A stretch of DNA of 63,099 bases, the filler included, from Reclinomonas americana ATCC 50394 (taxonomy: Eukaryota): assembly GCA_048213135.1 (NCBI GenBank). It is 4 parts of 3 records of this genome, joined end to end, with 100 filler letters (N's around TTAATTAATTAA, not from the genome) between each part and the next. Parts side by side here need not be neighbours in the genome. Positions count along the whole stretch, not along the records: positions 16,021 to 39,497 come from PS015235.1; 3 more parts are not named here. The stretch is one strand, 5' to 3'. Positions 10,001-49,139 of this stretch are shown here, in pieces (positions within the stretch are counted from its first letter, which is position 1; each line of letters begins with the position of its first letter). A program made the translations under genes and the position numbers. The notes under the pieces were generated by a model. That model searched no databases. It saw only the letters and a program-made list of their open reading frames with translations, and was not told where the DNA came from.

Positions 10001-13000
10001 ACTCCACTGCCAACGTCACCCACAAGACGATAGTAATACGTGGTGTTTGGTGCCAGCCCGCTAACTGCTTTCCTCGCCGTCACAGTCGAGGAACCCATCA
10101 CAGCAGACGATGGAGCGTCAGCCCCAAGCGAAGTCACATTCGTCTCAACCAGCGGGTCCGTCGACATGTCAAACTGCACACTGACACTTGGTCCATTGTT
10201 GGCGTTGACGGAGCCATTCAGCACACCCGCCACCGCCGTGATGCCTGATGCCGCTTGCGTCACCAACGTCGGAGCTGTAAAGGATCACAGAAAAGGTCAT
10301 CAACAAGAATGAGCTGCCGTCATCCGGTGACTCATCCGACCACACATACCAACAAGTGTGGTGAATGATTTTTGATTGCCAGGTTGAAAACTCGATGCGT
10401 CAACAGACCGGAAATAATACGTAGTCTGAGGCAGCAACTGTGACACTGCAACCGATGTCCCTGTGAAACCCGAGCCCGTCGACGTGCTTGGCGACGCTGT
10501 CACCAAACATGCCGGCAGTGTCAGCGATCGCACCTTGGTTTGATCTGAGGACACGGGAAGAAGAAGGAAAACTCGTGAGAAATGAGTTTAACACACGTCA
10601 CACAAAGCAGTCCCCTTCATCCTTACCTCCGACAACCAGTACCCCACGCCACGGATCGTACGCAACACCCCGCTGCACGCCGCCTCACATTAGCGACAGG
10701 GAGGAACACCACCTTNNNNNNNNNNNNNNNNNNNNNNNNNNNNNNNNNNNNNNNNNNNNNNNNNNNNNNNNNNNNNNNNNNNNNNNNNNNNNNNNNNNNN
10801 NNNNNNNNNNNNNNNNNNNNNNNNNNNNNNNNNNNNNNNNNNNNNNNNNNNNNNNNNNNNNNNNNNNACTCACCGAATGGTGCAGTTGCCCGTGTCGGCC
10901 ACATACACAGCTTGTGCCGCGCTATCCACAGCCACACCCCGAGGAGTGCAGAAGCTCGCCGCCGTCGTCATTCCATCCGCGCTGCCACAGCTGGTCGATG
11001 CACCAGCTCCGGCCACCGTCGATAGCGTGTTTCCAGTGTCGAACTTTCGCAGTGTGTGGTTCAAGTTCTGTTGAAAACAGGTGAGCTTCACGAGCACTCT
11101 TTGTGTGCATCACGCTGCCTCCGCCACATACCGCAGCAACAAACACGGCGCCGGTCAGCGGATCCGCCTCAATGTCGGCCGGTCTGCAGGCAACAAAGTC
11201 AGTCTTCGCACAGACACGCAAGCGCAAATCCACTCGAACGTACTCATTCAGTCGCGCCGCTGTGCCCACGTCATCAACATTGCCTGCCATTCCCACAGAT
11301 CCAGCGACCACAGTGACAGTTGATCCTGAGATCAGTCGTAAAACGTGATTGCTGTATGAAAAATACATATGAGCTCGCAAGCTTCCACCCCCTGCACATT
11401 CCGAGTTCACTCACAGCGAGTCGGCCACCAACACATCGCCGTTTGCCAGCGGGGCAACACCCTACACCACACAAACGAGATCAGCAAAAAAGCTTCAGGC
11501 GTGGACGACAAATGACTGTGATCACCGCACCCATGCCGAGTTCATGGTCCCAGCCAGCGAGCTGGACGTGACCGTCGCACCAAACGCCGACGACGCCACG
11601 GCAAGCTCAAAGCCGTTGAACAGAAAGCCTCCTCGCGGGTCGACGGAGCCTTGCAGCTGCGCCGACACCGCAGTGATGCCGGTGGCGTCCAAGGTGGCGA
11701 AAGGGTAAGGGCCAACGGTAATTTGCGTCGAGCCGACAGTGGTGAACGTAGAGGCTCCAGTAAACTTGATGCACACAGCATACATGCCGAGCACGGTTAG
11801 GGTCGACGATGTTGCAGCCTTGAACACTAGAGAACGCGAGCCAGCAAAGCCGCCCAGACTCTGGAAGGCGAGACCAATGCCGCCACCAGCAGTAGCGCAC
11901 GAAGTTACACCGAGTTGCAACTCGACAATGTCGGTGCTTTGCAGCCCAGCTCCGGCAACAATGACGTTATCGTACGTACTCGACACCGAAATGGACGACG
12001 GTGAAAATCCAGTGGTTGTAGCCACTGGGCAGAGAGGAATGAGAGTCAGCGTGCTGCTGGTCAAGGGAATATCTAATGACAGGACGAACCTGCGTCGACC
12101 TCAGTGCTGCCGACTTTCACAAATGACCCCCCGCCACCGTACTGGATGCTGTGTGCGACAGAAGATCACAGTAAGCGTGGTGAGCCGCAACATCCTTTCC
12201 ATCTGCGCTCCACTCACTCACCACACAGACAACGATCCAGTTGGAACTGTGCTCGCCGACGATGCGCTGGCCGTCAGCGTCCACGCGCCAATCATCCCGC
12301 CAAGCGTGCCGGTTGTCAGCAAGCTCCCGCCTCCGCTTGCCGTACACGTCACACCTGCCTCCAAGCGCACCACATCGGTCGCTCGCAGTGCCAGACCTGA
12401 TATCGTTATGCTGGCGCCCGCAGTCTCCGCCGCAATCGACGACGGCGTGAACGACGTCGCATTGGCCACTGGGGGAAAAGAGAAATGAGGTATTCTATGA
12501 CAGCCACAAATCGTCCTTCATGGTACACACTCACCGCCAGTCAGCAACGAAGATGAAACCTTCACCCATGTCCCCGCATCCGCCGAAAACTCCACACACA
12601 CGGAAAATGTGTCGGGACTCGCACTCGGCAGAAGCAGACCCGACCCGCCCACAGTCGCCACCACCTCCGTCAGCATCGAGCTGCTCAGCGATGCCGCCGT
12701 GGTGGCCCCAGCTGCCGGCGTGCACGCAATGCCGGGTACAAATCGCACTTGTGAAACAGAAGTGCTAACCGCCAGACCGGCTCCTGTCACCGTCACCGTC
12801 ACACTCGCCACCTCAGCGGCGATCGACGAAGGAGAGAAGCTCGATACAGACGCTGTGCGTTGTCGCAAAAGGAGATTAGATCTTCGCCCGCGACGTCTCA
12901 CTCACGCCTGGTAGCAGCAGGAAATAAACGCAACGAATGTACATCAGAGTGGATCCGACCTTGAAATACGACCCCGAGGCAGAGAAGCGTACACACACGC

Positions 13001-17007: not shown

Positions 17008-17252
17008 ATGACTGCGAAATTGCGAGTTCCGGAGAAGCTTATGGAGAAGCCGCAAATGAGTGTGGAACAAGTGGATGAAAAGTGGGAGACTCTCCGCCGC
17101 GCCATTCATCAGATCTATGCCAAGAATTCGTCGTCGCTTTCGTTTCAGACGTTGTATACGTTGCGTAAGGAGAAGAAGGGGGGATGGGGGGAAAAGGGGA
17201 TGAGAATGGGGTGAAAAGAGGGGTAAAAGGGGAGGAGAATGGGGAGAGGGAT

Positions 17253-17311
<59 letters not shown>

Positions 17312-17527
17312 CACTATATGTAGTACGAACGAAGAGATACGTCGTCTCGTCGTCGTACGTACTACTCCGTCCGTCGTACGTACGACGACGACGTACGTAC
17401 NNNNNNNNNNNNNNNNNNNNGGAAGGTAGGTAAGTAGTAGGAGTCCCTACCGTACGTCCTACGTAGTCGAACTAAACTTAACGTACGTTCGTTCGTCGTC
17501 TCCTCTCCTCCTCTTCTCTTCTCTCTC

Positions 17528-17574
<47 letters not shown>

Positions 17575-19290
17575 AGAGAGTGAGAGAAAGAATGAGCGCA
17601 CAGTCTCAGTGACAAGTAACAGATGTCTTTGTCTGTGTATCTTTCTCTCTCCCTCTTTCTCTCTCTCTCTCCCTCTCTCATTCTCCCTCTCTCTCTCTAT
17701 GTGTATGTGTGTATGAGCGCACATCTTTGTGCAACTGATAGATGTCATTGTCTGTTTCTCTCTCCCCTCTCGTGCGTGCCTGCATGTGTGTGTGACATAG
17801 AGAATGAGCGCACAGTCTCTGTGATAATAACAGGTGCAACGGGATCTGTATTTCTCTCTTGCTCTCTCTCTTTCTCTCTCTCCCTTTTTGTCCCTCACTC
17901 TGTCTGTCTGTCTGCCTGCCTCATCTCAGACGCCCGCTTCGCGGCCGTCGTTTCAATCTCACTCTGCAAAGGGATCGCCGCCTTTTCTCGCCCCATCTTT
18001 CCACTTGGGATTGACGCCCGCTTCGCGGCCGTCATTTCATATTTTTCACGCTGCACTCTCTCTCTCCCTTCCTCCCTCCCTCCCTTTTCTCCCTCGTCTC
18101 TCTGCCTCATCTCTGACGCCCGCGATTCGCGGCCGTCATTTCTTTTTCGTCACGAAGGATTTCGCACTCTTTCCCCCTTAATCTTCACTTCTTGACGCCC
18201 GCTTCGCGGCCGTCACCCTTTTTCCTCCCTCGCTCACCTCCCTTCCCCTTCAGCACCGCCTACCAAATGACCGTGTGCCACCAAGCCGAGTTCCTCTACC
18301 ACAAGGTCCGCGAGCTACTCACCGGCTTTGTTACGGAAACGCGGACGGCCCTCGACGCGAAACCCAACTCGCAGTTTGTGGAGGAACTGCGCTCCGCCTG
18401 GGTCTCACATCGCACCTCCATGTTCCTCATCAAGGACATCTTGATGTATGTGGTACGTGAATGGGTCTGCGGCAGAAGCAGCAGTGCACAGTAGAAAAAG
18501 TCCCCCTCCCTCACTCACTCGCCTGCTCGTGCAGGATAAGAACTGGACCTCCAAGCACAAGGACAAGCTCCCGTTCTACCAGCTCGGCCTGTCGCTCTTC
18601 CGCGACCTGGTCGTGCGGCACTCGTCGATTCAGCGGCGCACCGTCAGTCTCATGCTGGAGATGATTCGCCGCGATCGCTCAGGCGACGAGGTGCCCGACA
18701 AGGGCCTGCTGAAGAGCATCACCGAGGTGCGTGGTGTGTGCAGCAGACGTGCCTTCTCCCTCATCTCTCACACGCACGCGCGCGCAGATGTTTGTGGAGC
18801 TCGGCAAGCGCGACGTGTACGAGGCCCTGTTCGAGAAGCGCTTCCTCGAGGAGAGCGAGACATTCTTCCGCGCCGAGTCCTCCCAGTACTTTTCCACGTG
18901 CACGGCCCCCGAGTACCTGCGCAAGGTGAAAGCGCGGATGGATGACGAATTTGACCGCGTGGAGCAGTGCTTGGCCTCGACCACACGCGCGAAGATCCAG
19001 CACGTGATTGTGGATGTGATGGTGGCCAGCTTCTTGCTGGACACGCTGCAGAAGGAGAGCTCCGGGTTCATGGTGCAGCTGAAGGAGGGCAATGTGGAAG
19101 GTGGGGAAGGGGGAGAAGGGGGAAAAGGGTGAAGAAGAGAGGGAAGGAGGGAGTTAAGGGAGAGGATGGGGTTGAGGGTTGGAGACAAAGAAAGAGGGAG
19201 AAAGAGAGGGAGGAATGGGAAAGGGGGAAAAAGTGAGGGAGGGAGGAAAAGGGAGACGATGGGGGTGAGGGTTGGAGACAGACAGACACA

Positions 19291-19369
<79 letters not shown>

Positions 19370-19952
19370 GAGGAGAGGAGGAGAGAGANNNNNNNNNNNN
19401 NNNNNNNNNNNNNNNNNNNNNNNNNNNNNNNNNNNNNNNNNNNNNNNNNNNNNNNNNNNNNNNNNNNNNNNNNNNNNNNNNNNNNNNNNNNNNNNNNNNN
19501 NNNNNNNNNNNNNNNNNNNNNNNNNNNNNNNNNNNNNNNNNNNNNNNNNNNNNNNNNNNNNNNNNNNNNNNNNNNNNNNNNNNNNNNNNNNNNNNNNNNN
19601 NNNNNNNNNNNNNNNNNNNNNNNNNNNNNNNNNNNNNNNNNNNNNNNNNNNNNNNNNNNNNNNNNNNNNNNNNNNNNNNNNNNNNNNNNNNNNNNNNNNN
19701 NNNNNNNNNNNNNNNNNNNNNNNNNNNNNNNNNNNNNNNNNNNNNNNNNNNNNNNNNNNNNNNNNNNNNNNNNNNNNNNNNNNNNNNNNNNNNNNNNNNN
19801 NNNNNNNNNNNNNNNNNNNNNNNNNNNNNNNNNNNNNNNNNNNNNNNNNNNNNNNNNNNNNNNNNNNNNNNNNNNNNNNNNNNNNNNNNNNNNNNNNNNN
19901 NNNNNNNNNNNNNNNNNNNNNNNNNNNNNNNNNNNNNNNNNATATATATAAT

Positions 19953-19992
<40 letters not shown>

Positions 19993-22900
19993 GCGAGGGG
20001 AAGGGGAAAGGAGAGGGGGTGGGAGGGAGATAATGGAGAGGATGGGGTTGAGGGTTGGAGACAGAGAAAGGGAGCGAGATGGTTGACGTGTGCCGAATTT
20101 AGTTGGTCATCATGTTCTGCTTGTAGTTTGACTTCGTGTGTGAATTTGTGTGTTCTCTTGCCATTCCCTAATACTGCTCATTTCCTTAGTCTTCCCCTTA
20201 TTCCTCTGTTCTCCCTTTTGTATCACTATTCACGCCCCCCTTCCCTCCCCTTTGCTCACATTCCTCGCAGACCTGCGCCTCATGTATGATATGTTGTCTA
20301 TGGTGGAATACGCGCGGAACCCGATGATCGAAATGGTCAAGAGCCACATCATCAACGAAGTGCGGCTGTTTGTGCACGACGAGCAGTGCCAGAAGGATCC
20401 GAATTTCTTTGTGCAGGTGTGTGTTTTGCTTGTTGGCTTGGGTTCTTCGACCGCAGTTTGTTCTCTCCAGCTTCATCTCGTCGCTCACTCTCCATTCTCC
20501 TTCTCTCGCAGGGACTGCTGGACATGCGCACCAAGTTCATCGACATGCTCGAGTCGGCCTTCCAGCAGCAGGTGCCGCTGGAGGAGCCATCAGTTGCTGC
20601 CGAGGTTTGTGTGCACAGTCTCGTTCAGTCAGACGCTCGCTTCGCGGGCATATCTTATTTATCGCTCTGCCGAGGGATCGCTGCCTTATCTCCCTGCACT
20701 CTCGTCGCATTCCGCCTGTCAGACGCCCGCTTCCTCCTACTGCTCCTTCTCACTTCATCCATCTCCGCCAGGCCACACACCCACAACAGCAGGCACAGCA
20801 ACGTGCTCGCGCTGCACCTGGCTCACCGGGCAGCGTCGTGGCCATGGCACAGCGCAAGAGCCGCGCATGTGCGTTCAATCACATTCACTCTTGTTGCTCT
20901 CTGTTAATTTTTGACACGCTCTTTTACAGCTTCGCACGACGCCTCCGGCTCGGTGTTCTCCGTCACACGCTTGCTCAGACAACCCGACCAGGCCTTCCTC
21001 AATTGCATGAAGCAGGTGAGTGGGTGACAGATGAACTGCCTGCGAAATTGCTCGTTGGACAGAGGGGGGGGGGGGGGGGAGGAGAGAGAGAGAGCGAGAG
21101 AAGGATGAAACTGAGAATGGAAAGAGCTGGGATATGAAGAGTAGGGTGGACAGAATAAGGCAGATTCATCATTCCCCTTCCGCCCTCCTTCTCCTCATTC
21201 CTGAGGACACAAAGAGAAGGGGAGTACAAAGAAAAGAAGAAGTAAGATGGAGATTTTGAGATAGAAAGACCGATTCATCCTTCCCCTTCCGTCTTCCTCT
21301 TCCTTCCTGAGGACACAGAGAGAAGGGCATTACAAAGCGGAGAAGACGTAAGATGGAGATTCAGAAAGAGAAAGACAGATTCATCATTCCCTTCCGTCTT
21401 CCTTTTCCTCCGTCCTGAGGACACGGAGAGAAGGGGGTTACGAAGAAAAGAAGAAGTGAGAGGGGATGATGTGTGAGAGAGAGGCAGATTCATCCTTTTC
21501 CCTTCCGTCTTCCTTCTCCTTCCTGAGGACACAGAGTGAGGGGATTACGAAGCGGAGAAGAAATGCCTCCTCCTTCTCGTTTTCCTGTCTTGTCCCCTCC
21601 CTCTTGTATCCTCCCTCTTGTATCCTCCCTCTTATATCCTCTTGTCTCCTCTCTTTGTCTCCTCTCTGTGTCTCCTCTCTTGTCTACTCTCTTGTCTCTC
21701 CTCTCCATGTGTTCTCTGGTCTNNNNNNNNNNNNNNNNNNNNCCTTCCCCTTCCCCGTCCGTCTTCCTCCCGTTCTCTTCTCTCTCGTTCCCCCCTTCCC
21801 CTCCACCTTCCCCTCTTGTCTCCTCTGTCTTGTCTCCTCTCTTGTCTCTCCTCTCCATATGTTCTCTGGTCTCCTTTCCCTTCCCCTTCCCTCATCCTCT
21901 TCCCATTCTCCTGTCTAACCTTCCCCCTTCTACTTCCACCTTTACTTCTCCACTTTGCCTTCCCCTCTCTCCTTCACCATTCCCCCTTACCCCTTCCCCC
22001 TTCTCCATCTCTTTCCTCACCGTTCCCCTTCCCCTCTTTACCCTTCCCCTCCACCTTCCCCTCTTAACCCTTCTCCTTTTACCTTGCAGGCCTTCGAACT
22101 GGTGCTGAACGAATTCGAGCGCACCCCCGAATACCTCTCCCTCTACATCGACTCGAAGCTCAAGCGCGGCAAGTCGCAAGTGCCCGAGCACGAACTCGAC
22201 GGTCTCTTTGACAATTGCGTGCAAGTCTTCCGCTATCTGCGCGACAAGGACGTGTTTGAAAAGTACTACAAGAGGCACTTGTCAAAGGTGCGCCCGCCGC
22301 AGGACACATTGTTCTCTTTCTCCTCTTTTGCCTCTCACTCTTTCCGCCTCCTTGCCTGCAGCGCCTGCTCACCGGCCGCAGCATTTCGGACGATGCCGAA
22401 AACCAATTCCTGGGCAAGCTGAAGGCCGAGTGTGGCTATCAGTTTACCAACAAGATGGAGGGCATGTTCAAGGACCTGAAGATCAGCAAGGAGCTGCTGC
22501 AAAAGTACAAGCTGTTCCTCAAGACCAGGACTGTTGCGTCGACTCGAGTGAGAAGAAAACCATGGCGACATAATGTTGACCCTTGTTTGTGTTTGCAGCC
22601 TGCGTTGCCACCGCCACCCTTCGACTTGAGTGTGCAGGTGCTGACCACGGGTTACTGGCCGGCGCCCGTGGAGAGCTTTTGCGACATGAGCGAGTTCCTG
22701 CGGGAGCAGTTGGATGCGTATCGCACGTTCTACTGCAAGCAGTTCTCTGGCCGTCGTCTCACGTGGCACTTGAACATGGTGAGTTTGGGGAGGGGAAGAG
22801 AGGGGGGAGCAGAGGGGAAGTGGGGGGAGAGGGGACTAAGGCTAAAGGGTTGAGGGATGCGGCGCAATGGTTGAGGGTTGAAGGTTGAGGGTTGCGGCGT

Positions 22901-24396
22901 GAGGGTTTAGGGCTGAGAATTGAAGGTTGAGGGTTGCAAAGTGAGGGTTGAAGGATGCGTCGCGAAGGTTGCGGGTCAAGGGTTGCAAAGTGAGGGTTAA
23001 GGGTTGAGGGTTGTGGTGCGAGGGTTGCGGCGCGAGGGTTGAGGGTTGCGATGTGAGGGTTGAGGGTTGAGAGTATAGGGTTGCGGGTTGCGAAGCGAGG
23101 GTTGAGTGTTAAGGATTGCAAAGTAATCGTTAAGGGTTGCGAAGTGAGGGTTGAGCGTTGAGAGTTTACGGTTGAGGTTTGCGGAGTGATGGTTGAGGGT
23201 TGCGGTGCGAGGGTTGAGGGTTGCGGAGTGAGGGCGACCGTGAAGGAGCTGTTTTATCGAACGCGATTGGGGTGTGTGTTCATCTCCTTGCCAGTCTTGT
23301 CGTCTCTATGTCGTCTCTTTTGCGTCGTTTCCTTTCTTTTGCACGACAACATCCACATAGTTGCTGTCCCACGTTTTGTGTTTCACTGATCGCTTCTTGG
23401 TCCTTCTCACCTGAATGGTTTACATATCCTTCTGCTGCTATTCTTGTCGCTCTCTCCTCTCTAGAATTGTCTTCTCAGCTCTCTCCTCCTCCCACGCAGG
23501 GCAACGCCGACCTCCGCTTCAGCTGCGGTGAGGCCAGATATGAACTCAACGTCTCCACTCTTCAAATGTGCATTCTGCTGCTGTTTAACGACGCCGATCG
23601 GATCTCATTTACCGAGTTGGAGGCCACACTGAAGGCACGTTGGGAGATCTCTTTTCTCTCTCTCTCTCTCTCTGTGTGCGTGTGTCTGTTACTTCTTCCT
23701 CTCTCTGACTGTCATCTCTCTGTGTGTATGTGCGTGTCTGTTTATCTCCCTCTTTCCCTTTGCTCATCTTACCTCTCTCTCTACGTTTCTCTTTCTGTCT
23801 GTCCCTTCTCCCTCTCCCGCTTTCTCTTCCTGCCTCCTTCTCTCTCTCCTTCTCTCTTTCCCTCTCCCTTTCTCCCTCTCCCTCTTTCTCTCGTTCTCTC
23901 ACCCTCTCTCCTTCTCCCTCGCTCCCCGTCCCTCTCCTTCTCCCTCTCCTTCTCCCTCTCCCTCTCCTTCTCCCTCACCCTCACTCTCACTTTCTCTCGC
24001 ATGCAGATCCCGCCTCACGACCTCAAGCGCAACATTCTCTCCCTCTGCCTCAAGCACCAGACGCACTCGTGCGTTCTCGTCAAGGAGCCGCACAGCCAAG
24101 ATGTGGAGAAGTCGGACGTGTTTACGCTGAATGCGGCCTTCAAGACCAAGGTGAGCTCATCCCCAATTACCCTCCCACTCGCGCACATATTCAACCCTTC
24201 TGTCTCTCTCCAGAACCTCCGCCGCATCAAGATCTCCTCCGTGGCCATTCGGGAGACAGAATTGGAGAAGCGCAAGACGTACGAGAACATTAATGAGGAC
24301 CGCAAGTGGGAGATTGATGCGGCAATCGTGCGCATCATGAAGGCTTCACGGTCGTGCTATCACCAGGATTTGGTGGCGCGGGTGACGGCGCAGCTG
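17008..24396 (+). CDS. CUL3: Cullin-3-like scaffold (about 14 exons seen; last exon probably in the gap at 24881-25224)
   Basis: WETLRRAIHQIYAKNSSSLSF; KDILMYVD; RTPEYLSLYIDSKLKRG; KDVFEKYYKRHLSKRLL; KLKAECGYQFTNKMEGMFKD; VQVLTTGYWP; neddylation motif EDRKWEIDAAIVRIMK. Confidence 0.93.
17929..18214 (+). repeat. Intronic repeated hairpin motif GACGCCCGCTTCGCGGCCGTC (4 copies)
   Basis: Copies at 17929, 18013, 18115 and 18194 in cullin intron 1; degenerate copies at ~20632 and ~20723. Confidence 0.85.
21160..21560. repeat. Intronic minisatellite, ~107-bp unit x4
   Basis: CCTGAGGACAC anchor at 21200, 21306, 21414 and 21522. Confidence 0.85.
22847..23235 (+). repeat. Degenerate telomere-like (TTGAGGG)n tract within a cullin intron
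   Basis: Dense GGGTTGA/GGGTTAA/GGGTTGC heptamer variants. Confidence 0.8.
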
Positions 24397-25755
24397 GTGA
24401 GGGGGAAATACGGGGAGGGGAGGGAGGAGAAGGGAGGAGAAGGAGAAGACAAGCAGAGCGTGGAGAAGAAATGAAACAGGGAAAGGGGGAGAAGAAGAGG
24501 AAGAGGGAGGCGGAAAGGGAGGAGACGTCGAGAAGAAGAAGAAGCTGGCGAAGAAAAGAGTGAGAAGGGAATGTGAGACTGAGACACGAAGAGAGAGACA
24601 GAAAGGTGAACTATCACAGACAGGCAGAAAGAGCGAGAGAGAGTGAGTGAGTGTGTGAGTGAGTGAGTGTGTGTGTGAGAGAGAGAGAGAGAGAGATGTA
24701 TGTTGGGAGGAGTGGGAGCGTGGCTGAGGCGAGAAAGGAGAGAGAGGCAGTGAGAGAAAGATTGCGAGAAGAGAGAGAGAGAGAGAATTTGAGCCAAGGA
24801 AAAGGCGGAGAGGGTGTCGCTCTCTCGCGGTGTCGTATTATTTGTCTGGGTGCGAGTGGAGAAAGTGCTTGCCAGTGTTCNNNNNNNNNNNNNNNNNNNN
24901 NNNNNNNNNNNNNNNNNNNNNNNNNNNNNNNNNNNNNNNNNNNNNNNNNNNNNNNNNNNNNNNNNNNNNNNNNNNNNNNNNNNNNNNNNNNNNNNNNNNN
25001 NNNNNNNNNNNNNNNNNNNNNNNNNNNNNNNNNNNNNNNNNNNNNNNNNNNNNNNNNNNNNNNNNNNNNNNNNNNNNNNNNNNNNNNNNNNNNNNNNNNN
25101 NNNNNNNNNNNNNNNNNNNNNNNNNNNNNNNNNNNNNNNNNNNNNNNNNNNNNNNNNNNNNNNNNNNNNNNNNNNNNNNNNNNNNNNNNNNNNNNNNNNN
25201 NNNNNNNNNNNNNNNNNNNNNNNNTTGATCACGCAGGGAGTGTCTTCATGACCAACCATTGCTTCCAACGGAGTGTGCATGGGGAGTAACCAATTCGCTC
25301 GTCCTTTCACAAGAACACAAACAAAAACGAGGCCGAAAAGCGAATGATCCTCCTCGTTTGCACTCAATTTTGGAATTCGGCGTCGTGGTTTCTCTTGCAG
25401 CAACGCCAGTATTAGCCATCTCGACTTAATCTCGTTTTTCCGTGATGTCTGAGTTTCTGGTTCTCCCTCAAGATGGTGATCATCATGAAGCTATGTTGCT
25501 GTTTGGATCCGGAAAGTTGTTGTTGTTGTTGTTGCAAAATCCATGTTGCCTACGCAAAAAGGAGTCATAAACGTCGCGACGTCGACGTCACACGTGCAAT
25601 AATGACCGCTTTCTTCAACAAGCACTCATAGCAAGCAGGAGAAGTCGCTTTATCCTCCGTCACCCTTCACAAACACGACCCCATTCTCGAAAAAACTGCA
25701 GGACTTCGAACAAGCTTGAGTCCAATCACAATCGTGCTTGTGAGCGGACAACAAG

Positions 25756-28900: not shown

Positions 28901-31900
28901 GGACCCATCGCCACGCATGACCGAGTCGCAGCGTTCGTGGCTGCGCAATGTTCCCGGATTGGCTTCTTCAGCTGGGCCATCGTCGCGGGTGAATGCCGAC
29001 CGAAGCACATGGATCTCTTCTTCGTCACCGTCCCTCACATATCCTACAGCCATCGTCGTCGTCGTCGTCGTCTACAACCGCGCGTGGTCAGCGTCTCACT
29101 CTGCTGGACAAGGTCAGCGTGTCGAGTTTCTCGCGCATCTCGATCTCTCGCCCACCTCATTCGCCCCACAGCTCCCGCCAGAAATGGTCCAGGAGTGCCT
29201 GTCGTTCTTGGACCAGTACGAGTTCCAGCGTCTGTGGCGCACCTCGCAGCAGATCTGCTACTTTTTCGAGGAGGCCATGTACGAGTTTGTTATTCCAGCC
29301 GAGAACTGCCCGACCGAGGTCATGGCCCGGATCCTCGACACGCTGCCGAATCTGCACTGTCTGCGAAGTGCGTCCGCCGTGTGAGCATAAGCGACTTGCG
29401 ACGTTAGCGCTCACGAAGTGCAATTGCAGTGCGAGACATGCCGACTGGCGAGGGAGTGGAACTGGTGACAGTGGCCGCTCGTTTGCCACGACTCGAGCGT
29501 CTCGATCTTGTTCCGTGCTATCAATCCGCAACTCTTTTTTTTTATCACTTTGAGACTCACGTCTCCTCCACAGGGAGTGTTGGATGGATCTGAACTGCTT
29601 GACGCGCTCACGTCGCAAACTGATGATGCCTTCTGGCGGCGATTGCGCGAGCTCCGGCTGTGGGGTTCGCGTCTTCGTGTCTTCGTATCACCGCACATTG
29701 TGACCGATTTTCTCAACCGCCTCTCATCATCCAGGAATCTCTTCCGTTGACACAAACGACGTGCTGCGGTACTTGACGATTCGAGCGAGCCTGCTCGGCA
29801 AACTGGAGACATTCTCGCTCTTGGAGCCTCCAGAGGCATTTGGCGAGCGCCGCGAATGTGCGCCTTGGATCGAGTTCCTCCGCGCTGTGCCACATCTGCG
29901 TTCATTGCGTGTTGCGGTGTGTTCCTGTTCCCATTATGATGCCCACGGCACTCGCTGTGTTGTGACATCCACCGCTGCGCTGTGTGACCAGAATGTGCCC
30001 GGAGGTGCCGAGGATGATGAAGAAGGGTTGTACTCGTCGATGTTGTCGACCACGCTGTCACTGCCGAATCTGGAGGAGCTGCACTTGACACGTGAGTGCT
30101 GGTGGTCGTGCCATAGGAGGGAAAAATGTGGGGGGGCTGTCTCGTAATAATTGATGTTTTGTCGCAGGCTGGGATTTGTCATCGAAAATGGTTGACGATT
30201 TGTGCGATTACCTCTCAGTAGGCTGCAAGCTGACGACGCTTTCGATCGCGGTGCGTGATGTGGGCGATGGTGCATGGAGGAGATGGTGGGGGATTGATTA
30301 GAACAGCGATGCAGACTGCATTCTTGTTGTTTCCATATCTCACCTTCCTCCTGACCCATGCTGCAGTCTTGCTTGGTCACTCTCACTTTTCTTTTCCGTC
30401 TTCCCCTTCCGTCTTACCGCCTTCCATCTTCCTCCCTTTACGTCTTCCCTCCTTCCGTCTTCCCTCTTTCCGTCTTCCCTTCCGTCTTCCCTCCCTTCTA
30501 TCTTCTCACTTCCCCCTTCCCCCTTTCCCTCTTCCCCTTCCGTCCTCCTTCCTCCAGTCTTCCCTCCCCTTCCGTCTTCCTCCTTCTCCTCACCGTCCCT
30601 TCTCTTCCCCCCTTTCCCCCCATTCCCGCTTCCCGTCTCCCCTCTTCCGTCTTCTCCCCTTCTATCTTCCCCCTTCCGTCTTCCCCCTTCTGTCTTCCCC
30701 CTTCCGTCTTCCCCACTTCTGCCTCCCCCTTTCGTCTCTCTCTTTCCCCCTTTCTCCTCTTCTCACTCCCCCCTTCGTCTTCCCCCTTCCGTCTTCTCCC
30801 CTTCCGTCTTCCCCCCTTCTGTCTTCCTCCTTCCGTCACCCCCTTCTGTCTTTCCCCCTTCTGTCTTCCCCCCTTCCGTCTTCTCCCTTCCATCTTCTCC
30901 CTTTCCTCTGTCTCCCCTTTCCGTCTCTCTCTTTCCCCCTTTCTCCTCTTCTCACTTCCCCCCTTCGTCTTCCCCCTTCCGTTTTCTCTCTTCTGTCTTC
31001 TCCCTTCCCCCTTCTCCCCTCCCCCTTCTCCCCTTCCCTCTTTTCCCGCTTCTCCCCCTTCCCCCCATTTCCGTCTTTTCCCCTTGTGACTTCTTCCTTC
31101 CGTCCTCCCCTTCTGTCTTCTCCCCTTCTGTCTTCCCCCCATTCCGTCTTTCCCCCTTCGCCCTTTCCCCCCTCTCCCCCTTTCCCCTCCCCTTCCCCCT
31201 TTCTTCCTTTNNNNNNNNNNNNNNNNNNNNNNNNNNNNNNNNNNNNNNNNNNNNNNNNNNNNNNNNNNNNNNNNNNNNNNNNNNNNNNNNNNNNNNNNNN
31301 NNNNNNNNNNNNNNNNNNNNNNNNNNNNNNNNNNNNNNNNNNNNNNNNNNNNNNNNNNNNNNNNNNNNNNNNNNNNNNNNNNNNNNNNNNNNNNNNNNNN
31401 NNNNNNNNNNNNNNNNNNNNNNNNNNNNNNNNNNNNNNNNNNNNNNNNNNNNNNTCCCCTTTTTGCAGCCATTCCCGGTCGACGGCGCCGAGCTCCTCGT
31501 CGATGCCATTCACCACTGCGATACACTCCGCTCGCTCTACGTCGCCGTCGACTTGGACACCTCGTGGCCGCAGTCGCTAGCCAATGTGGTGGCCACGCAC
31601 CCAAGCATCACCAAGTTCACCGTGGAGGGCGGCGAGATCTCGTTCGATGTCCTGAAGCGCCTGCTGACCGCCCCTCGACTGGAGAAGCTCACCTTGGCCT
31701 CTGTTGACAGTTGCGAGTGCAGCGTGAACAACGTGTGCTTGCTGATACTCATTTGCCGATCCCACCCCCCTCACCTAGCTCACGACGCGTTTTCCGCGCG
31801 GGATCGAAAGTTGTGTGTGTACTGCACTCGTTTTGTTTCTCTTGATCATATATTCTCACATGTGGGTGTGTGATTACGGCAGTCGTCAATTTTTGCTCCC

Positions 31901-33076
31901 GAATGCACTTCGCCGCGGCTCGAAGAGCGGGGTGGTGCTGAAGGATTTTGAAGTCCTTGGTGAGTGCAACAATTGCTGCATTCGTCTGCCGATGCAGCTG
32001 CTTACCCACTCGGCGAATCCAGACTGGGAGCGCGGATCAAACCTCGATGACCTGTACGCGCTGTTCATGGCCGTCGTCAGGTCGAATGCTCTTCGACGCT
32101 TTGCGTTTGCAGGTGCACTTGTTTTGTCTCTTTCTGTCACCTTTCCTCGCTCCCGCTTAAGCAAACAAACTGGGGCGTTGCTGTGCACAGCTCGCATTGG
32201 TACCGAGGTACCTGATCGCCGCGTGCTTGGTGAGTGTGCACTGTGCGCCAACTTTGTCCACATCTCCCCCCTCCATCTCCGTTCACATACCGCGCGCTCG
32301 TATACGTAACAGAATTCTTTGAGAAACTCGATGGCAACCTGACGCTGGAAGAGCTCGTGATGTTCAACGTCGTAGCGCTGGAGAAGCCGGAGGCGGATTA
32401 TATGGCGCAGATGATCTGCTGCGGGCAACACAGTCTGCGCCGCCTGCAGTTGACGCCGGTCGGATCTGTGCCGGCCACCACCAAGTTCCTGCAGGGCATG
32501 AAGGACAGGTATCGCGGTGGACCGTTGGAGCTCGTGGCGTCGTCGGATGTCGCCAGTCTGCAAGGCAGCAACGGTACTCATGTCGCCTTTGGTCCGATCC
32601 GCTGTGACTGCAGAGGGTGCTGAATGCATTTGTTTGGATACAGCTCGACAGTTGGCGAAGCTTGCCAGGTCGATGCAGATTGAGAACCCCAATTTGGTGG
32701 TTCGTGCAATCAACACCCCGCCGGAATACAGCGATGAGTGGGACGTTAACGCGTGGTTTGTCAGCGACTTTGGTGGTGCGTGGCGGACACTCGTTGCGAT
32801 GTACATGGTTGTTTTGTGCTTGCAGTGCGTCATTGTCGTTGTGTGTGTGTGCGCGCAGATGACGACGAGGAAGAGGAGGAGGAAGAGCAGCGGCTACAGC
32901 TGCCGCCGATGCCGCTGCCGATACCGCCGCATCCTCACCATCACCACCACCATCATCAGCTGAGGATTCTGGAAGTGGTGGACTTGGACGTATTCCTTGG
33001 CATCATGATGCAATCCAATCGCTACTTGCGACAGATGCAGCGCCAACTGAATCCGCATCGGCGCAACTGGTTCTGA
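25756..33076 (+). CDS. RRM + Thr/Pro/Ser linker + F-box + RNI-like LRR protein (single spliced gene model)
   Basis: RRM: CNTLFCEHL...ALITFRTVQDAEQVL...GIALQYAR (27754-28121). F-box: LLDK|LPPEMVQECLSFLDQYEFQRLWRTSQQI (~29095-29260). LRR motifs LPNLHCL, LRELRL, VPHLRSLRV, LPNLEELHL, LRSLYV, LEKLTL, LRRLQL. Seven phase-0 exons connect the RRM and F-box without a stop. Acidic/His-rich C-terminus ends at 33076. Confidence 0.75.
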
Positions 33077-33779
33077 GGTGGTGAGGAGCGCATGTGAATT
33101 GCTGCTTCTTTGAGAGGCAAGCGTACGGTGCTGATCATGCTGCAACAGATGTTGCAATTGTATGTTCTGTGTACATGTATTATCATCAACAGAATTATTG
33201 CGCTGCGCGCTTGTTGGCGAATGAATGGAATCTGTTGCGACGAGACTTTGCGACGATCCCAGTGCATGTTGTACTCACACAACCGTGCGGTACTGCTTTT
33301 GAGCACACTATTTGCGCTACGAAATTCTTTTGATCATGAGACCAACACTAGTCTGGGTGGGCAGGGTGGGCTCCAAGAGCCAAAGAAGAGTGAAAACGAA
33401 CAGGACAACTGAAAGGCATTGGTGGTTCCTGGTCGTTTCTCACTCTGGAAACCTAAGTATACCAATCGGTAACTAGCGATTTGCCTCATGAAAGGGAAGA
33501 TGACTGTTGGAGAAGAGTAACTGTGTGTCTTGTTCATGGTTGGTGTGTCAAGGTCATTGTCGCGATCGGCAAGGGATATCTTGTTTGTTGCCTCGCCTGC
33601 TCGGTTCTTGTTTTGGCCATGCTTCGCACGTGCAGCGTCTAGAAAGATGCAGATACCAAGGCGCAAGGATCGTGCTCATGTATGCAGGTGCTGAGTCCAC
33701 ATGGCGCATGATGCACGCAGCGGTGGACGGGAAGCCGAAGTCTGTGAAGTCAGAGGACAACTCATTCCTTGTCTTCATT

Positions 33780-35273: not shown

Positions 35274-35314
35274 TCGTCCCGCACTGGCTGTGGCACGAAC
35301 AGACAGACAGTGTG

Positions 35315-35440
35315 CGAGCGCAGTGCGAGAGGCGATGGGTGCGATCACTGGGGGAAGGAGACCCTCGATGCCCGCTTCGTCGTCGAGGAGGCCGAGGCCA
35401 TGGTGCATCGGCGCACCGTGCACCCGGAGTCGCATTTAAT
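35315..35440 (+). pseudogene. Decayed 3' fragment of a WD40-array gene
   Basis: GCGAGAGGCGATG...GAAGGAGACCCTCGATGCC|CGCTTCGTCGTCGAGGAGGCCGAG...GAGTCGCATTT matches the array tail (GEGDPRC / FVVEEAEAMVHRRTVHPESHL). The LPEMV segment is deleted. Confidence 0.75.
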
Positions 35441-35624: not shown

Positions 35625-36722
35625 ATGTCTCTCGCTCCTTCTCGGCCCTCTCTCCTCCCTTTCAAACCTCTGCTTGGGCACACAAATATAGTGATGTCCG
35701 TCACCGTCACTCCCGATGGCCGACACATCATCAGTGGGAGTTATGACAAGACCGTGCGTGTGTGGTTGCTGGCAAGAGGTGAGGAAGTGCGACGTTTGGA
35801 GGGCCACGCAGCGATGGTGGAATCTGTCGCCGTCACTCCTGACGGGAAGCACATCGTGAGCTGCTGCCGCGACTCAGCCATTGTGTGGTCGCTGGAGAGC
35901 GGAGAAGAGGTGCGACGATTGGAGGGACACACTGGTTGGGCGTGGTCCGTTGCCTTCACGCCCGACGGTCAACACGTTATCAGTGGAGGCAGTGACAAGA
36001 CTGTGCGTGTGTGGTCTTTGGCAAGTGGAGAAGAGGTGCGACGACTGGAGGGGCACACTGAATGGGTGAGGTCTGTCGCCGTCACTCCCACTGGTGAGTT
36101 CATTGTGAGTGGTAGCAATGATCGCACTGTACGAGTGTGGTCACTCGCGAGTGGCGAGGAGGTGCGACGATTGGAGATGCACAATGCAGTGGTGACGGTT
36201 GTTGTCACTCCCGATGGTGAGCACATTCTCGGTGGCAGTAGGGGAATTGTGCGAATGTGGTCACTGGCGAGCGGCGAGGAGGTACGAGAGCTGAAATTAC
36301 ACAGTGCATGGGTGCACGTGACATCACTTGCCATCACTCCTGACGAGCGGCACGTTGTGAGTGCGAGTTGGGATACCACAGTGCGAGTGTGGTCACTGGC
36401 GAGTGGAGAAGAAGTGCGACGGATGGAGGGGCACACCAGCCAGGTGTGGTGTGTCGCTGTCACTCCCGATGGTGAGCACGTTGTGAGTGGCGGCAAGGAC
36501 AACGCCGTGCGAGTGTGGTCCACTCCGTGCGGTCTCGCGCGCGAAGAGCTCCACACAGCGTTAGCTGTGATGTGCGCTGTTCAGGAGATGCAGCTGGCTG
36601 CTGACGACGAAGGTGACTCTCGATGCCTGCCAGAGATGGTGCTGCGCTGCTTCATTGTCGAGGATGCCGAGGTCATCGTGTATCGGCGCAGCGTAGACCC
36701 ATGGCCAGAGTCGCATTTGTGA
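35625..36722 (+). CDS. WD40 array copy 1: intronless 7-blade WD40 + conserved C-terminal tail (365 aa)
   Basis: MSLAPSRPS start, seven GH..V.SVAVTPDG..IVSG..D.TVRVWSL repeats, tail EEL..A..AMCAVQEMQL...CLPEMVLRCFIVE. Confidence 0.92.
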   Translation: MSLAPSRPSLLPFKPLLGHTNIVMSVTVTPDGRHIISGSYDKTVRVWLLARGEEVRRLEGHAAMVESVAVTPDGKHIVSCCRDSAIVWSLESGEEVRRLEGHTGWAWSVAFTPDGQHVISGGSDKTVRVWSLASGEEVRRLEGHTEWVRSVAVTPTGEFIVSGSNDRTVRVWSLASGEEVRRLEMHNAVVTVVVTPDGEHILGGSRGIVRMWSLASGEEVRELKLHSAWVHVTSLAITPDERHVVSASWDTTVRVWSLASGEEVRRMEGHTSQVWCVAVTPDGEHVVSGGKDNAVRVWSTPCGLAREELHTALAVMCAVQEMQLAADDEGDSRCLPEMVLRCFIVEDAEVIVYRRSVDPWPESHL

Positions 36723-47452: not shown

Positions 47453-48397
47453 CACACCCCAACCAACAGCATGTCATCCCGCGCACAAGCCGCCTCCTCG
47501 GCCGCCTCGGCCTCGCGCTCAAGAGACGACGACGACGACGACGACGACGACGAGGAAGAGGAAGACGAATTCGAATTCGAATTCTGCGACGAGCCAGCCC
47601 ACAGAGAGAATGACAAGAGTAAAACTCTTGGATGTAGCCGTTCAGATCAGCGTCTGCGTCCCAGACTATGAACTTGGCACAGCGCTGCAATTCGAATTGT
47701 TCTTTTCGTCCCACATGTCCCCGACCGACGCCAGTCTTTCAGAACGCTCCGCTCACCACACGCCAACCACCAGCATGTCATCCCGCGCACAAGCCGCCTC
47801 CTCGGCCGCCTCGGCCTCGCGCTCAAGAGACGACGACGACGACGACGACGACGAGGAAGAGGAAGACGAATTCGAATTCGAATTCTGTGACGAGCCAGCA
47901 CACAGAGAGAATGCCAACAGCAAAACTCTTGGATGTAGCCGTGCAGATCAGCGTCTGCGTCCCAGACGTAGAACTTGTGGCCGCAAACGCAGTGCGATTC
48001 GAATTGTTCTTTTCGTCCCACATGTCCCCGACCGGCACTCACCCCCTGGCCACCCCCACCCCCACACGCCAACCAACAGCATGTCATCCCGCGCACACGC
48101 CGCCTCCTCGGCCGCCTCGGCCTCGCGCTCAGGAGACGACGACGACGACGACGACGAGGAAGAAGAGGAAGAAGACGAATTCGAATTCGAATTCTGTGAC
48201 GAGCTCGAGCCTGTTTTGCAGTTGAGAGAGTAATACTCGTCTACGTACGTCGTGCAGATCAGTGCTTGTGTCCCAGACTATGAAACGGCAGTGCTGCTTC
48301 GAATTGTTCTTTTCGTCCCACACCGCGTGTCCGACCACATTCACCCACTCCCTGGCACCACATCCACACGCCAACCAACAACATGTCATCCCGCGCA
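47453..48397 (+). repeat. ~304-bp tandem repeat (3 full + 1 partial), each starting a short acidic ORF
   Basis: ATGTCATCCCGCGCA at 47471, 47775, 48081 and 48383. Each full unit has (GAC)n(GAR)n and GAATTCGAATTCGAATTC. Confidence 0.9.
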
Positions 48398-49139
48398 NNN
48401 NNNNNNNNNNNNNNNNNGCGTCGGGGACTGTGATTCCCGCCCCTCGTCGACCTTTCACTGGCTGTGCGCGCTTGGCTCACTCTTCACGTCTCATCTCTCG
48501 TCTCTCGTCGTCTCCGATTGCGTCGTCCCTCGTTCCTCGCGCTTTCTGGTCCGCCCTTGCAAATTTGTCGCTTTTCTCCGCTGCTTGCACTAAAGAGGCA
48601 CACCCTCCTTTTCTGTCCTTCTCTTCCTTCTTCGGTCGCTCCGATGTCTTCCTTCGTTTCCGCGCCGCTTGACTGCATTGCATCAGCTGTCGCCGAAGAC
48701 CGCACTCCCTCCTTTTCTTTTCTGTCCTTCCATGTCCTTCTTCGACGCTCGCTCGGTTTGTCTTCTTCTGCGCTTCTTGATAAACCTGCACCTGACGCTC
48801 TCTCGCTTCTTTCCTTGTCCTTCTTCGACGCTCTCTCCCTTTGTCTGCGCTTCGTGATCAAACTGCACCTGACGGTCTCTCGCTCTTTCTTCTTCTGTCC
48901 CTCTTTCCTTCCATGTCCTTCTTCGACGCTCTCTCCATTTGTCTGCGAGTCTTGATCAAACTGCTCCTGGCGAGCTCTCTCGCTCTTTGTTCTTCTGTCC
49001 ATTTCATTCTTCTCCGCTTGCTGTCATTCATTCTGCTTTCTTGGTCGCTTGCGTTCGCTGACGAACCCACTCGCTTTTTCTTGATCGCTCCCTTTTTTTG
49101 TCTTTCGCTTTGATTGCTTNNNNNNNNNNNNNNNNNNNN

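What the first reader, a model, noticed from the sequence alone, without database searches (positions are those of the whole stretch)
36526..36722. Constant C-terminal tail with an F-box-like motif (CLPEMVLRCFIVE)
Seen: all copies end with a predicted helix followed by RCL(P/S)EMV(L/V)(R/H)CFIVE. This shares PEMVxxC with the F-box 7 kb upstream (LPPEMVQECLSF). Established: F-boxes begin LPxE-hydrophobic, and poxviral ankyrin/PRANC proteins and SOCS-box proteins put the ligase-recruiting box at the C-terminus behind a repeat domain. Inference: the tail couples the variable propeller to a cullin-RING ligase. The match is short and tentative.
Basis: partly seen in the sequence, partly recalled or inferred. 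Interest (0 to 1): 0.78.

Follow-up and report, generated by a model that had tools for sequence, protein, structure and literature searches.

The report
Orphan helical tail on WD40 array
Nine neighbouring genes in a protist encode ring-shaped binding proteins with variable binding faces that all end in the same short two-helix tail of no known family; it probably plugs them into a shared partner, but it is not a standard F-box and its link to ubiquitin ligases is only a possibility.

Summary
The motif is real: 9 of 9 tails in a tandem array of intronless seven-bladed WD40 genes carry RCL(P/S)EMV(L/V)(R/H)CFIVE. Only that 14-residue core is constant (94% identity); the whole tail (76%) is no more constant than the propeller (76%). 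The tail is a ~55-residue two-helix module without a Pfam match. It recurs behind a jakobid EST WD40 and two propellers only ~25% identical, one keeping 12 of 14 core residues, so the core is selected at protein level. Variation concentrates on the propeller's top face. The F-box reading is weak: LPxE is met in 0 of 13 tails, an invariant Glu sits where the upstream F-box has Phe/Leu, only 24-31 residues follow Leu, and the neighbouring cullin is Cul3. The minimal poxviral F-box pattern is met in 11 of 13, but about 11% of shuffled tails also meet it. Best reading: a lineage-restricted docking module linking variable target-binding propellers to one constant partner; ubiquitin-ligase link about 0.3, Skp1 about 0.15. 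The scan noted similar arrays and tails on other pieces of this genome.

The parts
35625..36722 (+). Gene 1: intronless 7-bladed WD40 propeller (residues ~13-298) plus tail, 365 aa
   Evidence: 7 PF00400 repeats; pLDDT 84, pTM 0.80
36519..36722 (+). Tail module of gene 1 (residues 299-365), the finding proper
36525..36608 (+). Predicted helix 1 (residues 301-328), amphipathic with a 3-4 spacing of conserved L309, A312, M316, V319; E308 invariant
   Evidence: column table
36621..36662 (+). Conserved core RCLPEMVLRCFIVE (residues 333-346); L335, C342, F343, E346 invariant in 13 of 13 tails; start of predicted helix 2 (335-357, to 36695)
36915..38003 (+). Gene 2, WD40 + tail (tail from 37809)
38237..39328 (+). 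Gene 3, WD40 + tail (tail from 39128; core has Ser in place of Pro)
39598..40259 (+). Gene 4, 5' part not in the assembly (follows a spacer-containing gap); tail from 40065
40479..41581 (+). Gene 5, interrupted by a 20-N gap; tail from 41399, ends 5-7 residues earlier than the others
41822..42913 (+). Gene 6, WD40 + tail (tail from 42719)
43702..44804 (+). Gene 7, a 20-N gap inside helix 1 of the tail (tail from 44590)
44994..46088 (+). Gene 8, WD40 + tail (tail from 45885)
46291..47376 (+). Gene 9, WD40 + tail (tail from 47182)
35290..35440 (+). Decayed tail relic at the left edge of the array; a 20-nt deletion removes the LPEMVLR codons and shifts the frame
   Evidence: (tail profile iE 3.8e-4)

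Best explanation
The tail is a lineage-restricted two-helix docking module. Each protein is an adaptor: the top face of the seven-bladed propeller binds a target that differs from copy to copy, and the tail, mainly the nearly all-hydrophobic start of helix 2 (LPEMVLRCFI), inserts into a groove of one partner protein shared by the whole family. It works like the box of F-box, SOCS-box or poxviral ANK-PRANC adaptors but is not a member of these families. The single most likely class of partner is ubiquitin-ligase machinery (about 0.3 overall, about half of that Skp1 or a Skp1 paralogue); a signalling partner such as an NLR or kinase is the main alternative. Shown: array, motif, conservation pattern, sequence-level non-membership. 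Predicted: two helices. Inferred: docking role and any partner.
For: Core kept across distant relatives: 14 of 14 in a jakobid EST protein, 12 of 14 on a propeller 23% identical (61 of 270), 8 of 14 on one 26% identical. All 4 genuine relatives among 7 profile hits in 1.84 billion representatives carry the tail at the C-terminus directly behind WD40/propeller sequence. Top-face positions (21, fixed from the WD40 template) have dN 0.49 against 0.13 for the other 264; 0 of 5,000 random position sets reach it; dN(top)/dS 1.05 (0.73-1.49) against 0.28. The propeller closes on its own (7 blades, matches 5yzv at rmsd 1.3-1.5 over ~288 residues), so the tail is an appended module. Positions 338-340 and 342-344 are all hydrophobic on average, more faces than one helix-helix contact buries (inference). 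Precedent: nematode F-box families show purifying selection on the box and positive selection on the substrate domain (PMC8120010, passages); trypanosome cullins use propeller and LRR receptors that lack an F-box (PMC12816148, section 8); cryptic C-terminal BC boxes exist (PMC6232478, passages). An unchecked scan note reports a tail of this description on an E2-like protein in the same genome (e1-7450341).
Against: No partner is identified by any sequence test. Top-face dN/dS is about 1, not clearly above it, so relaxed constraint fits as well as positive selection. Inside the array the core's constancy is partly a DNA effect: 96% nucleotide identity with only 3 synonymous changes against about 9 expected, and nearest neighbours change along the gene, as gene conversion gives. 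The family is shallow (13 tails, 9 from one array), tail pLDDT is 54-63 in the full model and pTM 0.38 alone, so helix packing is uncertain. A heptad-like helix 1 fits self-association equally well.
Confidence: 0.5

Rival explanations
1. One reading: the core is a truncated, C-terminal F-box (helix 1 only) that binds Skp1, making these proteins inverted F-box/WD40 substrate receptors, as in poxviral ANK-PRANC proteins. (A special case of the best explanation.)
For: [quoted passage not shown] Cowpox CP77 binds Skp1 with little more than helix 1 (PMC4353913, passage). Protist F-boxes are degenerate and under-detected (PMC9485057, passages). PEMVxxC is shared with this organism's own F-box (0.8% of shuffles; 2%).
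Against: The pattern is cheap: 11-14% of shuffled tails in four of five sets and 9% of average 65-mers meet it. LPxE 0 of 13; Pro is Ser in one array copy and Val in P0007. The two registers exclude each other: aligning PEMV puts Cys-Leu where the F-box has Leu-Pro; aligning LP puts Met on the F-box Glu. Either way the invariant Glu346 or the acidic residue after it falls where the window's F-box has Phe-Leu. Helix 2 is predicted as one 23-residue helix. No Pfam F-box hit for 13 of 13 tails; the tail profile does not report the upstream F-box at iE < 10 in the window. The local cullin is Cul3.
Confidence: 0.15
2. The tail is a self-association module: the helices pair between copies to form homo- or hetero-oligomers of propellers, raising avidity for multivalent or foreign targets, with no ligase involved.
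For: Helix 1 has conserved small and hydrophobic residues at 3-4 spacing (L309, A312, M316, V319). The model is two long helices with poorly defined mutual packing (pTM 0.38), as expected of an element that folds on assembly. A near-identical core lets paralogues mix.
Against: Oligomerisation helices usually tolerate substitution, whereas Cys342, Phe343 and Glu346 are invariant across propellers only ~25% identical; in a gene family that binds itself, the interface could drift together.
Confidence: 0.25
3. The core is an Elongin C-binding BC-box, making the proteins WSB-like WD40/SOCS-type receptors.
For: Same domain order as WSB1/2 (recalled). The invariant Cys lies four residues after Met/Leu/Val338, and P0003 reads PTLVLHC, a perfect [TSP]-L-x3-C core.
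Against: Full consensus [TSP]-L-x3-[CSA]-x3-hydrophobic (PMC6232478, passage) is met in 0 of 13; the tenth position is an invariant Glu; the core is met in 1 of 13; no LPxP cullin box follows (0 of 13). Cul2 and Cul5 are described as animal-specific (PMC12816148, passage).
Confidence: 0.04
4. The tail is structural only: it packs on the bottom or side of the propeller as a lid or stabiliser and has no outside partner.
For: It has so far been found only behind propellers (4 of 4 genuine relatives).
Against: The propeller is complete without it; the core stays the same on propellers whose surfaces differ in three of four residues; AlphaFold2 gives the tail low confidence next to a confident propeller.
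Confidence: 0.12
5. The constancy is a by-product of recent duplication and gene conversion or of a DNA-level element; the peptide has no special role.
For: The 42-bp core has the lowest synonymous divergence in the gene (pS 0.02-0.06 against 0.36).
Against: The same peptide is kept in four outside proteins, two on very distant propellers; the synonymous deficit is not significant after scanning correction (81 of 1,000); the relic upstream of gene 1 has lost exactly this DNA.
Confidence: 0.05

Closest known systems
Poxviral and Orientia ANK-PRANC (ANK/F-box) proteins and poxviral ANK/BC proteins (PMC4353913, PMC6232478; passages read)
   Same: Repeat binding domain first, short ligase-recruiting-type box at the C-terminus; expanded paralogue family; minimal phi-P-X2-phi-X3-phi pattern met in 11 of 13 tails.
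   Different: WD40 rather than ankyrin; cellular gene array; no Pfam PRANC or F-box hit; a 28-residue conserved helix precedes the motif; invariant Cys-Phe-x-x-Glu is not an F-box or BC-box feature; ligase binding untested.
WD40-SOCS-box proteins WSB1/WSB2 (recalled, not fetched)
   Same: Seven WD40 repeats followed at once by a ~40-60-residue helical C-terminal module that contains an LP-started helix.
   Different: No BC-box consensus (0 of 13), no LPxP cullin box (0 of 13), much longer first helix; multi-copy and surface-variable rather than single-copy and conserved.
Cellular F-box/WD40 proteins (beta-TrCP, Fbw7; recalled) and expanded nematode F-box families (PMC8120010, passages)
   Same: Constant box plus variable substrate-binding domain in an expanded family.
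   Different: Their box is N-terminal, 42-48 residues and three helices; here it is C-terminal with 24-31 residues from Leu to stop.
WD40 domains of fungal HNWD NLRs, HET-E/HET-D/HET-R (PMC2873952, passages) and regular prokaryotic propellers 5yzv, 2ymu
   Same: Highly regular repeats, variation on the top face, sequence exchange between copies.
   Different: No NACHT or HET domain; single propeller with an orphan C-terminal tail; positive selection here is not shown (ratio about 1).
Trypanosome TbCul-E kelch and TbCul-G LRR client receptors (PMC12816148, sections 8 and 10 read)
   Same: Discoban repeat proteins acting, or proposed to act, as cullin receptors without a recognisable F-box or BTB domain, together with Skp1 paralogues.
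   Different: Different repeat type and lineage; no sequence link was tested.

Membership tests
Cellular F-box (PF00646/PF12937) | Profile match to the F-box family | tested here: not met
   0 of 13 tails hit an F-box model, while the upstream F-box hits PF00646 at E 7.3e-6. HMMER's filters drop most matches above E 0.1.
Cellular F-box (PF00646/PF12937) | Start L-P-x-E and hydrophobic end of helix 1 ([FY]L; consensus recalled, seen in the window's own F-box) | tested here: not met
   LPxE 0 of 13; helix-1 pattern 0 of 13; invariant Glu346 at the hydrophobic position.
Cellular F-box (PF00646/PF12937) | 42-48 residues, three short helices (PMC8120010, PMC4353913 passages) | tested here: not met
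   24-31 residues from Leu to stop in 9 of 9 copies; both models give one 23-residue helix (moderate confidence).
Cellular F-box (PF00646/PF12937) | Fold match to a solved F-box | tested here: inconclusive
   a low-pTM two-helix model cannot include or exclude a family; see Tried and rejected.
Truncated C-terminal F-box (PRANC type) | C-terminal position behind a repeat domain | tested here: met
   9 of 9 array copies and 4 of 4 genuine relatives.
Truncated C-terminal F-box (PRANC type) | [quoted passage not shown] | tested here: inconclusive
   Met in 11 of 13 tails, but also by 11-14% of shuffled tails in four of five sets (2% in the fifth) and 9% of average 65-mers.
Truncated C-terminal F-box (PRANC type) | Profile match to PRANC (PF09372) | tested here: not met
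   Not among the 2 Pfam families hit by any of 13 tails.
F-box of any kind | Binds Skp1 and assembles on Cul1 | not testable with these tools
   Needs co-purification; see Tried and rejected.
SOCS/BC box | [TSP]-L-x3-[CSA]-x3-[AILMFVPG] (PMC6232478) | tested here: not met
   0 of 13; core [TSP]-L-x3-C in 1 of 13.
SOCS/BC box | Downstream cullin box (LPxP type; recalled) | tested here: not met
   0 of 13; viral BC boxes also lack it (PMC6232478 passage).
SOCS/BC box | Binds Elongin C | not tested
Cul3 adaptor | BTB domain in the same chain (PMC4279162 passage) | tested here: not met
   No BTB hit in any of 13 tails, none among the 25 best of 63 families shown for the full protein, and no room for one in the 365-aa model.
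DCAF (DDB1-Cul4 receptor) | WDxR motif and H-box helix (both recalled) | not tested
   Only inspected by eye: repeats end W-S-L-[AE]-S-G, no WDxR; no formal test or DDB1 model.
WD40 seven-bladed propeller | Seven WD40 repeats closing a ring | tested here: met
   7 PF00400 stretches; model pLDDT mostly above 88 over residues 21-300; Foldseek 5yzv E 2e-32.

The most novel reading that the evidence does not exclude
A jakobid-type protist encodes arrays of surface-variable WD40 receptors whose C-terminal tail is a new cullin-RING-recruiting box, possibly a one-helix Skp1-binding remnant placed behind the propeller as in poxvirus ANK-PRANC proteins: a cell-encoded, diversifying degrade-on-recognition repertoire, perhaps against intracellular parasites or giant viruses.
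Probability: 0.2. Interest if true: 0.78.

Novelty: new variant of a known kind. Interest (0 to 1): 0.48.

Why it matters
If the tail recruits a ubiquitin ligase it adds a new class of cullin-recruiting box and shows that a deep-branching protist keeps a diversifying set of degradation receptors with the inverted layout known mainly from poxviruses and intracellular bacteria. Even without that link it is a small unnamed domain, conserved over very distant propellers, that gives a direct handle (a 60-residue bait) on the partner of a large variable receptor family. As it stands the ligase link is a hypothesis and the relatives are few.

Tried and rejected
Complex prediction, tail (67 aa) with a stand-in Skp1 (P0027): verdict 'no answer', score 0.02 in both runs, alignments not used, tail fold uncertain; it is no evidence either way. 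Elongin C, DDB1, Cul3 and tail-with-tail were not modelled (one job only). Sequencing runs: none was listed, no evidence on expression; read laying therefore unused. Own genome not held, so other copies and the reported E2-like carrier could not be checked. Fold searches with the tail model: Foldseek PDB 13 matches, none at E <= 0.001; BFVD 125 matches, none at E <= 0.001; VIA wide best Z 6.9, generic two-helix matches, no F-box, SOCS or VHL chain among the 50 rows shown; VIA second look best Z 4.8; three MOB-binding kinase segments at Z 5.4-6.1 with 4-7% identity were judged generic. These absences exclude nothing. Full-length searches were filled by propellers. Sequence libraries: PDB profile searches 6 and 3 hits, best E 0.33 and 1, unrelated; NCBIfam 0 families; PHROGs 3 weak families, best E 0.019; ESM Atlas no usable hit and three unnamed clusters at 0.80-0.81, within chance. 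Word-index search with the tail region: 0 of 8 candidates; with the alignment against longer proteins: 3 of 7,999, all already in the alignment. 3 of the 7 profile hits (two PPR proteins, one repetitive protein) matched only 11-29 positions and were dropped. Contig scans: 46 metagenome and 31 viral stretches matched the peptide pattern, none confirmed; a looser DNA pattern gave 31 + 1 + 10 loci, none scoring above 19 bits on the tail profile and none with WD40 sequence, so no carrier with another architecture was found. Upstream F-box against viral contigs: 5 stretches, none confirmed. The first dN/dS script had one row out of frame; its numbers are replaced. Promoter role for the core DNA considered and set aside because the relic upstream of gene 1 lacks it. 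An overlapping reading frame starting in the core (ATG at 42820, 47283) was judged incidental and not tested. Literature: no paper held all of 'WD40', 'C-terminal F-box', 'protist'; 'jakobid + nuclear genome + WD40' 5 papers and 'Reclinomonas + WD40' 6 papers, titles unrelated (listings only); one search listed 12 of 30, none by title on this family. The library lacks most subscription papers; no supplements were read.

Full report
Setting. The window is intron-rich eukaryotic DNA with assembly gaps. No genome is held for it. The closest relative of the tail is a protein that its source labels as a Reclinomonas americana EST (P0002), so the organism is probably a jakobid (inference). Between 35625 and 47376 lie nine intronless genes on the + strand, each a seven-repeat WD40 protein of about 362 residues; six are complete, one lacks its 5' part and two are interrupted by 20-N gaps. 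A six-frame-stop spacer flanked by N at 39542 splits the array after gene 3, so genes 1-3 and 4-9 may not be true neighbours.

The observation. All 9 tails carry RCL(P/S)EMV(L/V)(R/H)CFIVE. The finding's coordinates cover the tail of gene 1 (residues 301-365). The upstream F-box is real (PF00646, E 7.3e-6, above cut-off) and shares PEMVxxC. The word 'constant' holds only for the core: over the 11 sequence pieces of the nine genes, mean pairwise identity is 75.7% for the propeller, 75.9% for the whole tail and 94.0% for residues 333-346. The motif is not terminal: 24-31 residues run from its Leu to the stop. A decayed relic of a tail lies just upstream of gene 1, with a 20-nt deletion of exactly the LPEMVLR codons.

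Is the core under selection as a peptide? Inside the array this cannot be told, because the DNA of the core is also nearly invariant (96% identity against 77-82% in the flanks; 3 synonymous changes against about 9 expected, pointwise P 0.005-0.008, 81 of 1,000 after allowing for the scan) and nearest neighbours switch along the gene, as gene conversion gives. Outside relatives decide it. A profile of 8 tails against 1.84 billion representatives gave 7 hits at E <= 0.001; 4 are propeller-plus-tail proteins and 3 are short chance matches that I dropped. P0004 has a propeller 23% identical to gene 1 (61 of 270) yet keeps 12 of 14 core residues; P0007 is 26% identical and keeps 8 of 14; P0002 keeps 14 of 14 and P0003 8 of 13. 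Over 13 tails the invariant residues are E308, L335, C342, F343 and E346; the Pro is not invariant (Ser in gene 3, Val in P0007). The EST origin of P0002 indicates that a family member is transcribed with WD40 and tail in one frame.

Anatomy. AlphaFold2 gives a closed seven-bladed propeller (pLDDT mostly above 88) followed by helices 301-328 and 335-357 at pLDDT 54-63. The tail alone gives the same two helices (mean pLDDT 74, pTM 0.38), so the helices are likely and their packing is not known. The propeller matches regular WD40 structures such as 5yzv and 2ymu. Helix 1 is amphipathic with 3-4 spacing; a variable acidic linker follows; helix 2 starts with a run that is hydrophobic on several faces. 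No Pfam family matches any of 13 tails at better than E 0.15.

The propeller face. Twenty-one top-face positions (R1-2, R1, D-1; template recalled, fixed before counting; two are off by one because blades 2 and 5 are a residue short) have dN 0.49 against 0.13 for the other 264 positions, and 0 of 5,000 random sets reach this. Against the scaffold's dS the ratio is 1.05 (0.73-1.49), the scaffold's own 0.28. So the binding face diverges freely or under diversifying selection; positive selection is not shown. The same positions vary in fungal HNWD receptors (PMC2873952, passages).

F-box test. [quoted passage not shown] Against: the pattern is met by 11-14% of shuffled tails in four of five sets; LPxE is met in 0 of 13 and the helix-1 pattern in 0 of 13; the PEMV and LP registers differ by one residue and each loses a signature; the invariant Glu346 falls on the Phe-Leu that closes helix 1 in the window's own F-box; hhalign gives 6% over 8-10 columns; the tail profile finds the 9 tails at iE <= 1.4e-31 and the relic at 3.8e-4 but not the F-box at iE < 10; there is no room for a 42-48-residue box (PMC8120010, passage). 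It is not a member of the cellular F-box family; a one-helix remnant is not excluded.

Other boxes. The invariant Cys lies in BC-box spacing and P0003 has a perfect [TSP]-L-x3-C core, but the full consensus is met in 0 of 13 because position 10 is the invariant Glu, and no LPxP follows. There is no BTB domain. The neighbouring cullin (start 17008, last coding exon near 24400) is full-length and Cul3-type: 14 of 14 PDB hits for exon 2, 14 of 17 for exon 1, and the top 5 of 36 for a middle exon. Cul3 takes BTB adaptors (PMC4279162, passage), so it gives no support to an F-box reading; gene neighbourhood means little in a eukaryote in any case. That one helix half-fits F-box, BC-box and (by eye, recalled) H-box patterns shows how little such a match says.

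How it most likely works. A variable top face binds different targets (shown: variation; inferred: binding). The tail, chiefly the start of helix 2, docks on one partner common to the family (inferred from conservation that is independent of the propeller and from exposed hydrophobic faces). I put a shared outside partner at 0.5, self-association at 0.25, a purely structural lid at 0.12 and no role at 0.05. A cullin-RING or other ubiquitin-system partner is about 0.3 overall, Skp1 about 0.15, Elongin C about 0.04. Reasons to keep the ligase reading alive are the architecture, the precedent of box-less propeller and LRR receptors on trypanosome cullins (PMC12816148, sections 8 and 10), the constant-box/variable-domain pattern of nematode F-box families (PMC8120010, passages) and an unchecked scan note that a tail of this description also ends an E2-like protein in this genome (e1-7450341). 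I could not check that note or confirm that it is the same tail. Tests that gave no answer are listed under Tried and rejected.

Novelty. The tail matches no family in Pfam, NCBIfam or PHROGs at a useful level, and four literature searches listed no paper on it by title (the library lacks most subscription papers, and no supplements were read). The overall design, a variable repeat domain with a constant docking box, is known; the box is new and narrowly distributed. I rate it a new variant of a known kind. Earlier notes of this scan describe WD40 arrays with an orphan helical tail on at least five other pieces of the same genome; they are AI notes and are not counted as support. Interest 0.48; 0.78 if ligase recruitment were shown.

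Noticed in passing
window 36621-36662 and the same codons in the other 8 copies: The 42-bp core is 96% identical at DNA level between copies, with a deficit of synonymous changes too (3 against about 9 expected; 81 of 1,000 after scan correction), while both flanks are 78-82% identical. Gene conversion, chance or a nucleotide-level constraint; unexplained.
   Followed up: partly
window 35290-35440: Decayed tail relic at the left edge of the array; a 20-nt deletion between short repeats removes the LPEMVLR codons.
   Followed up: yes
window 15965, 39542, 57902: TTAATTAATTAA spacer (stops in six frames) flanked by 44 N on each side, probably an artificial join of contigs; one lies inside the WD40 array.
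   Followed up: partly
window 17008-24400 (+): Full-length multi-exon cullin of Cul3 type; its adaptor-binding N-terminal exons are recognisable but diverged.
   Followed up: partly
window 29172-33080 (+): Genuine F-box (PF00646) followed by LRR-like exons, with RRM-like exons upstream; helix 1 has Cys where F-boxes usually have Ile (recalled).
   Followed up: partly
window 5485-10167 (-): 1,560-aa exon of about 14 near-identical fibronectin-III-like repeats, part of a larger surface-protein gene that continues upstream to about 15600.
   Followed up: no
window 47460-48400: Three to four tandem copies of a ~270-bp unit just right of the array, each with a short acidic reading frame (MSSRA...DDDDEEEEDEFEFEFCDE).
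   Followed up: no
window 41560-41581: Gene 5 has a small deletion that ends the protein 5-7 residues early, suggesting that the last residues of the tail are dispensable.
   Followed up: no
L001:1147-1677, L002:1441-1929, L003:1210-1674: Three contigs filed as viral carry canonical, full-length Skp1 genes (47-56% identical to L003's).
   Followed up: partly
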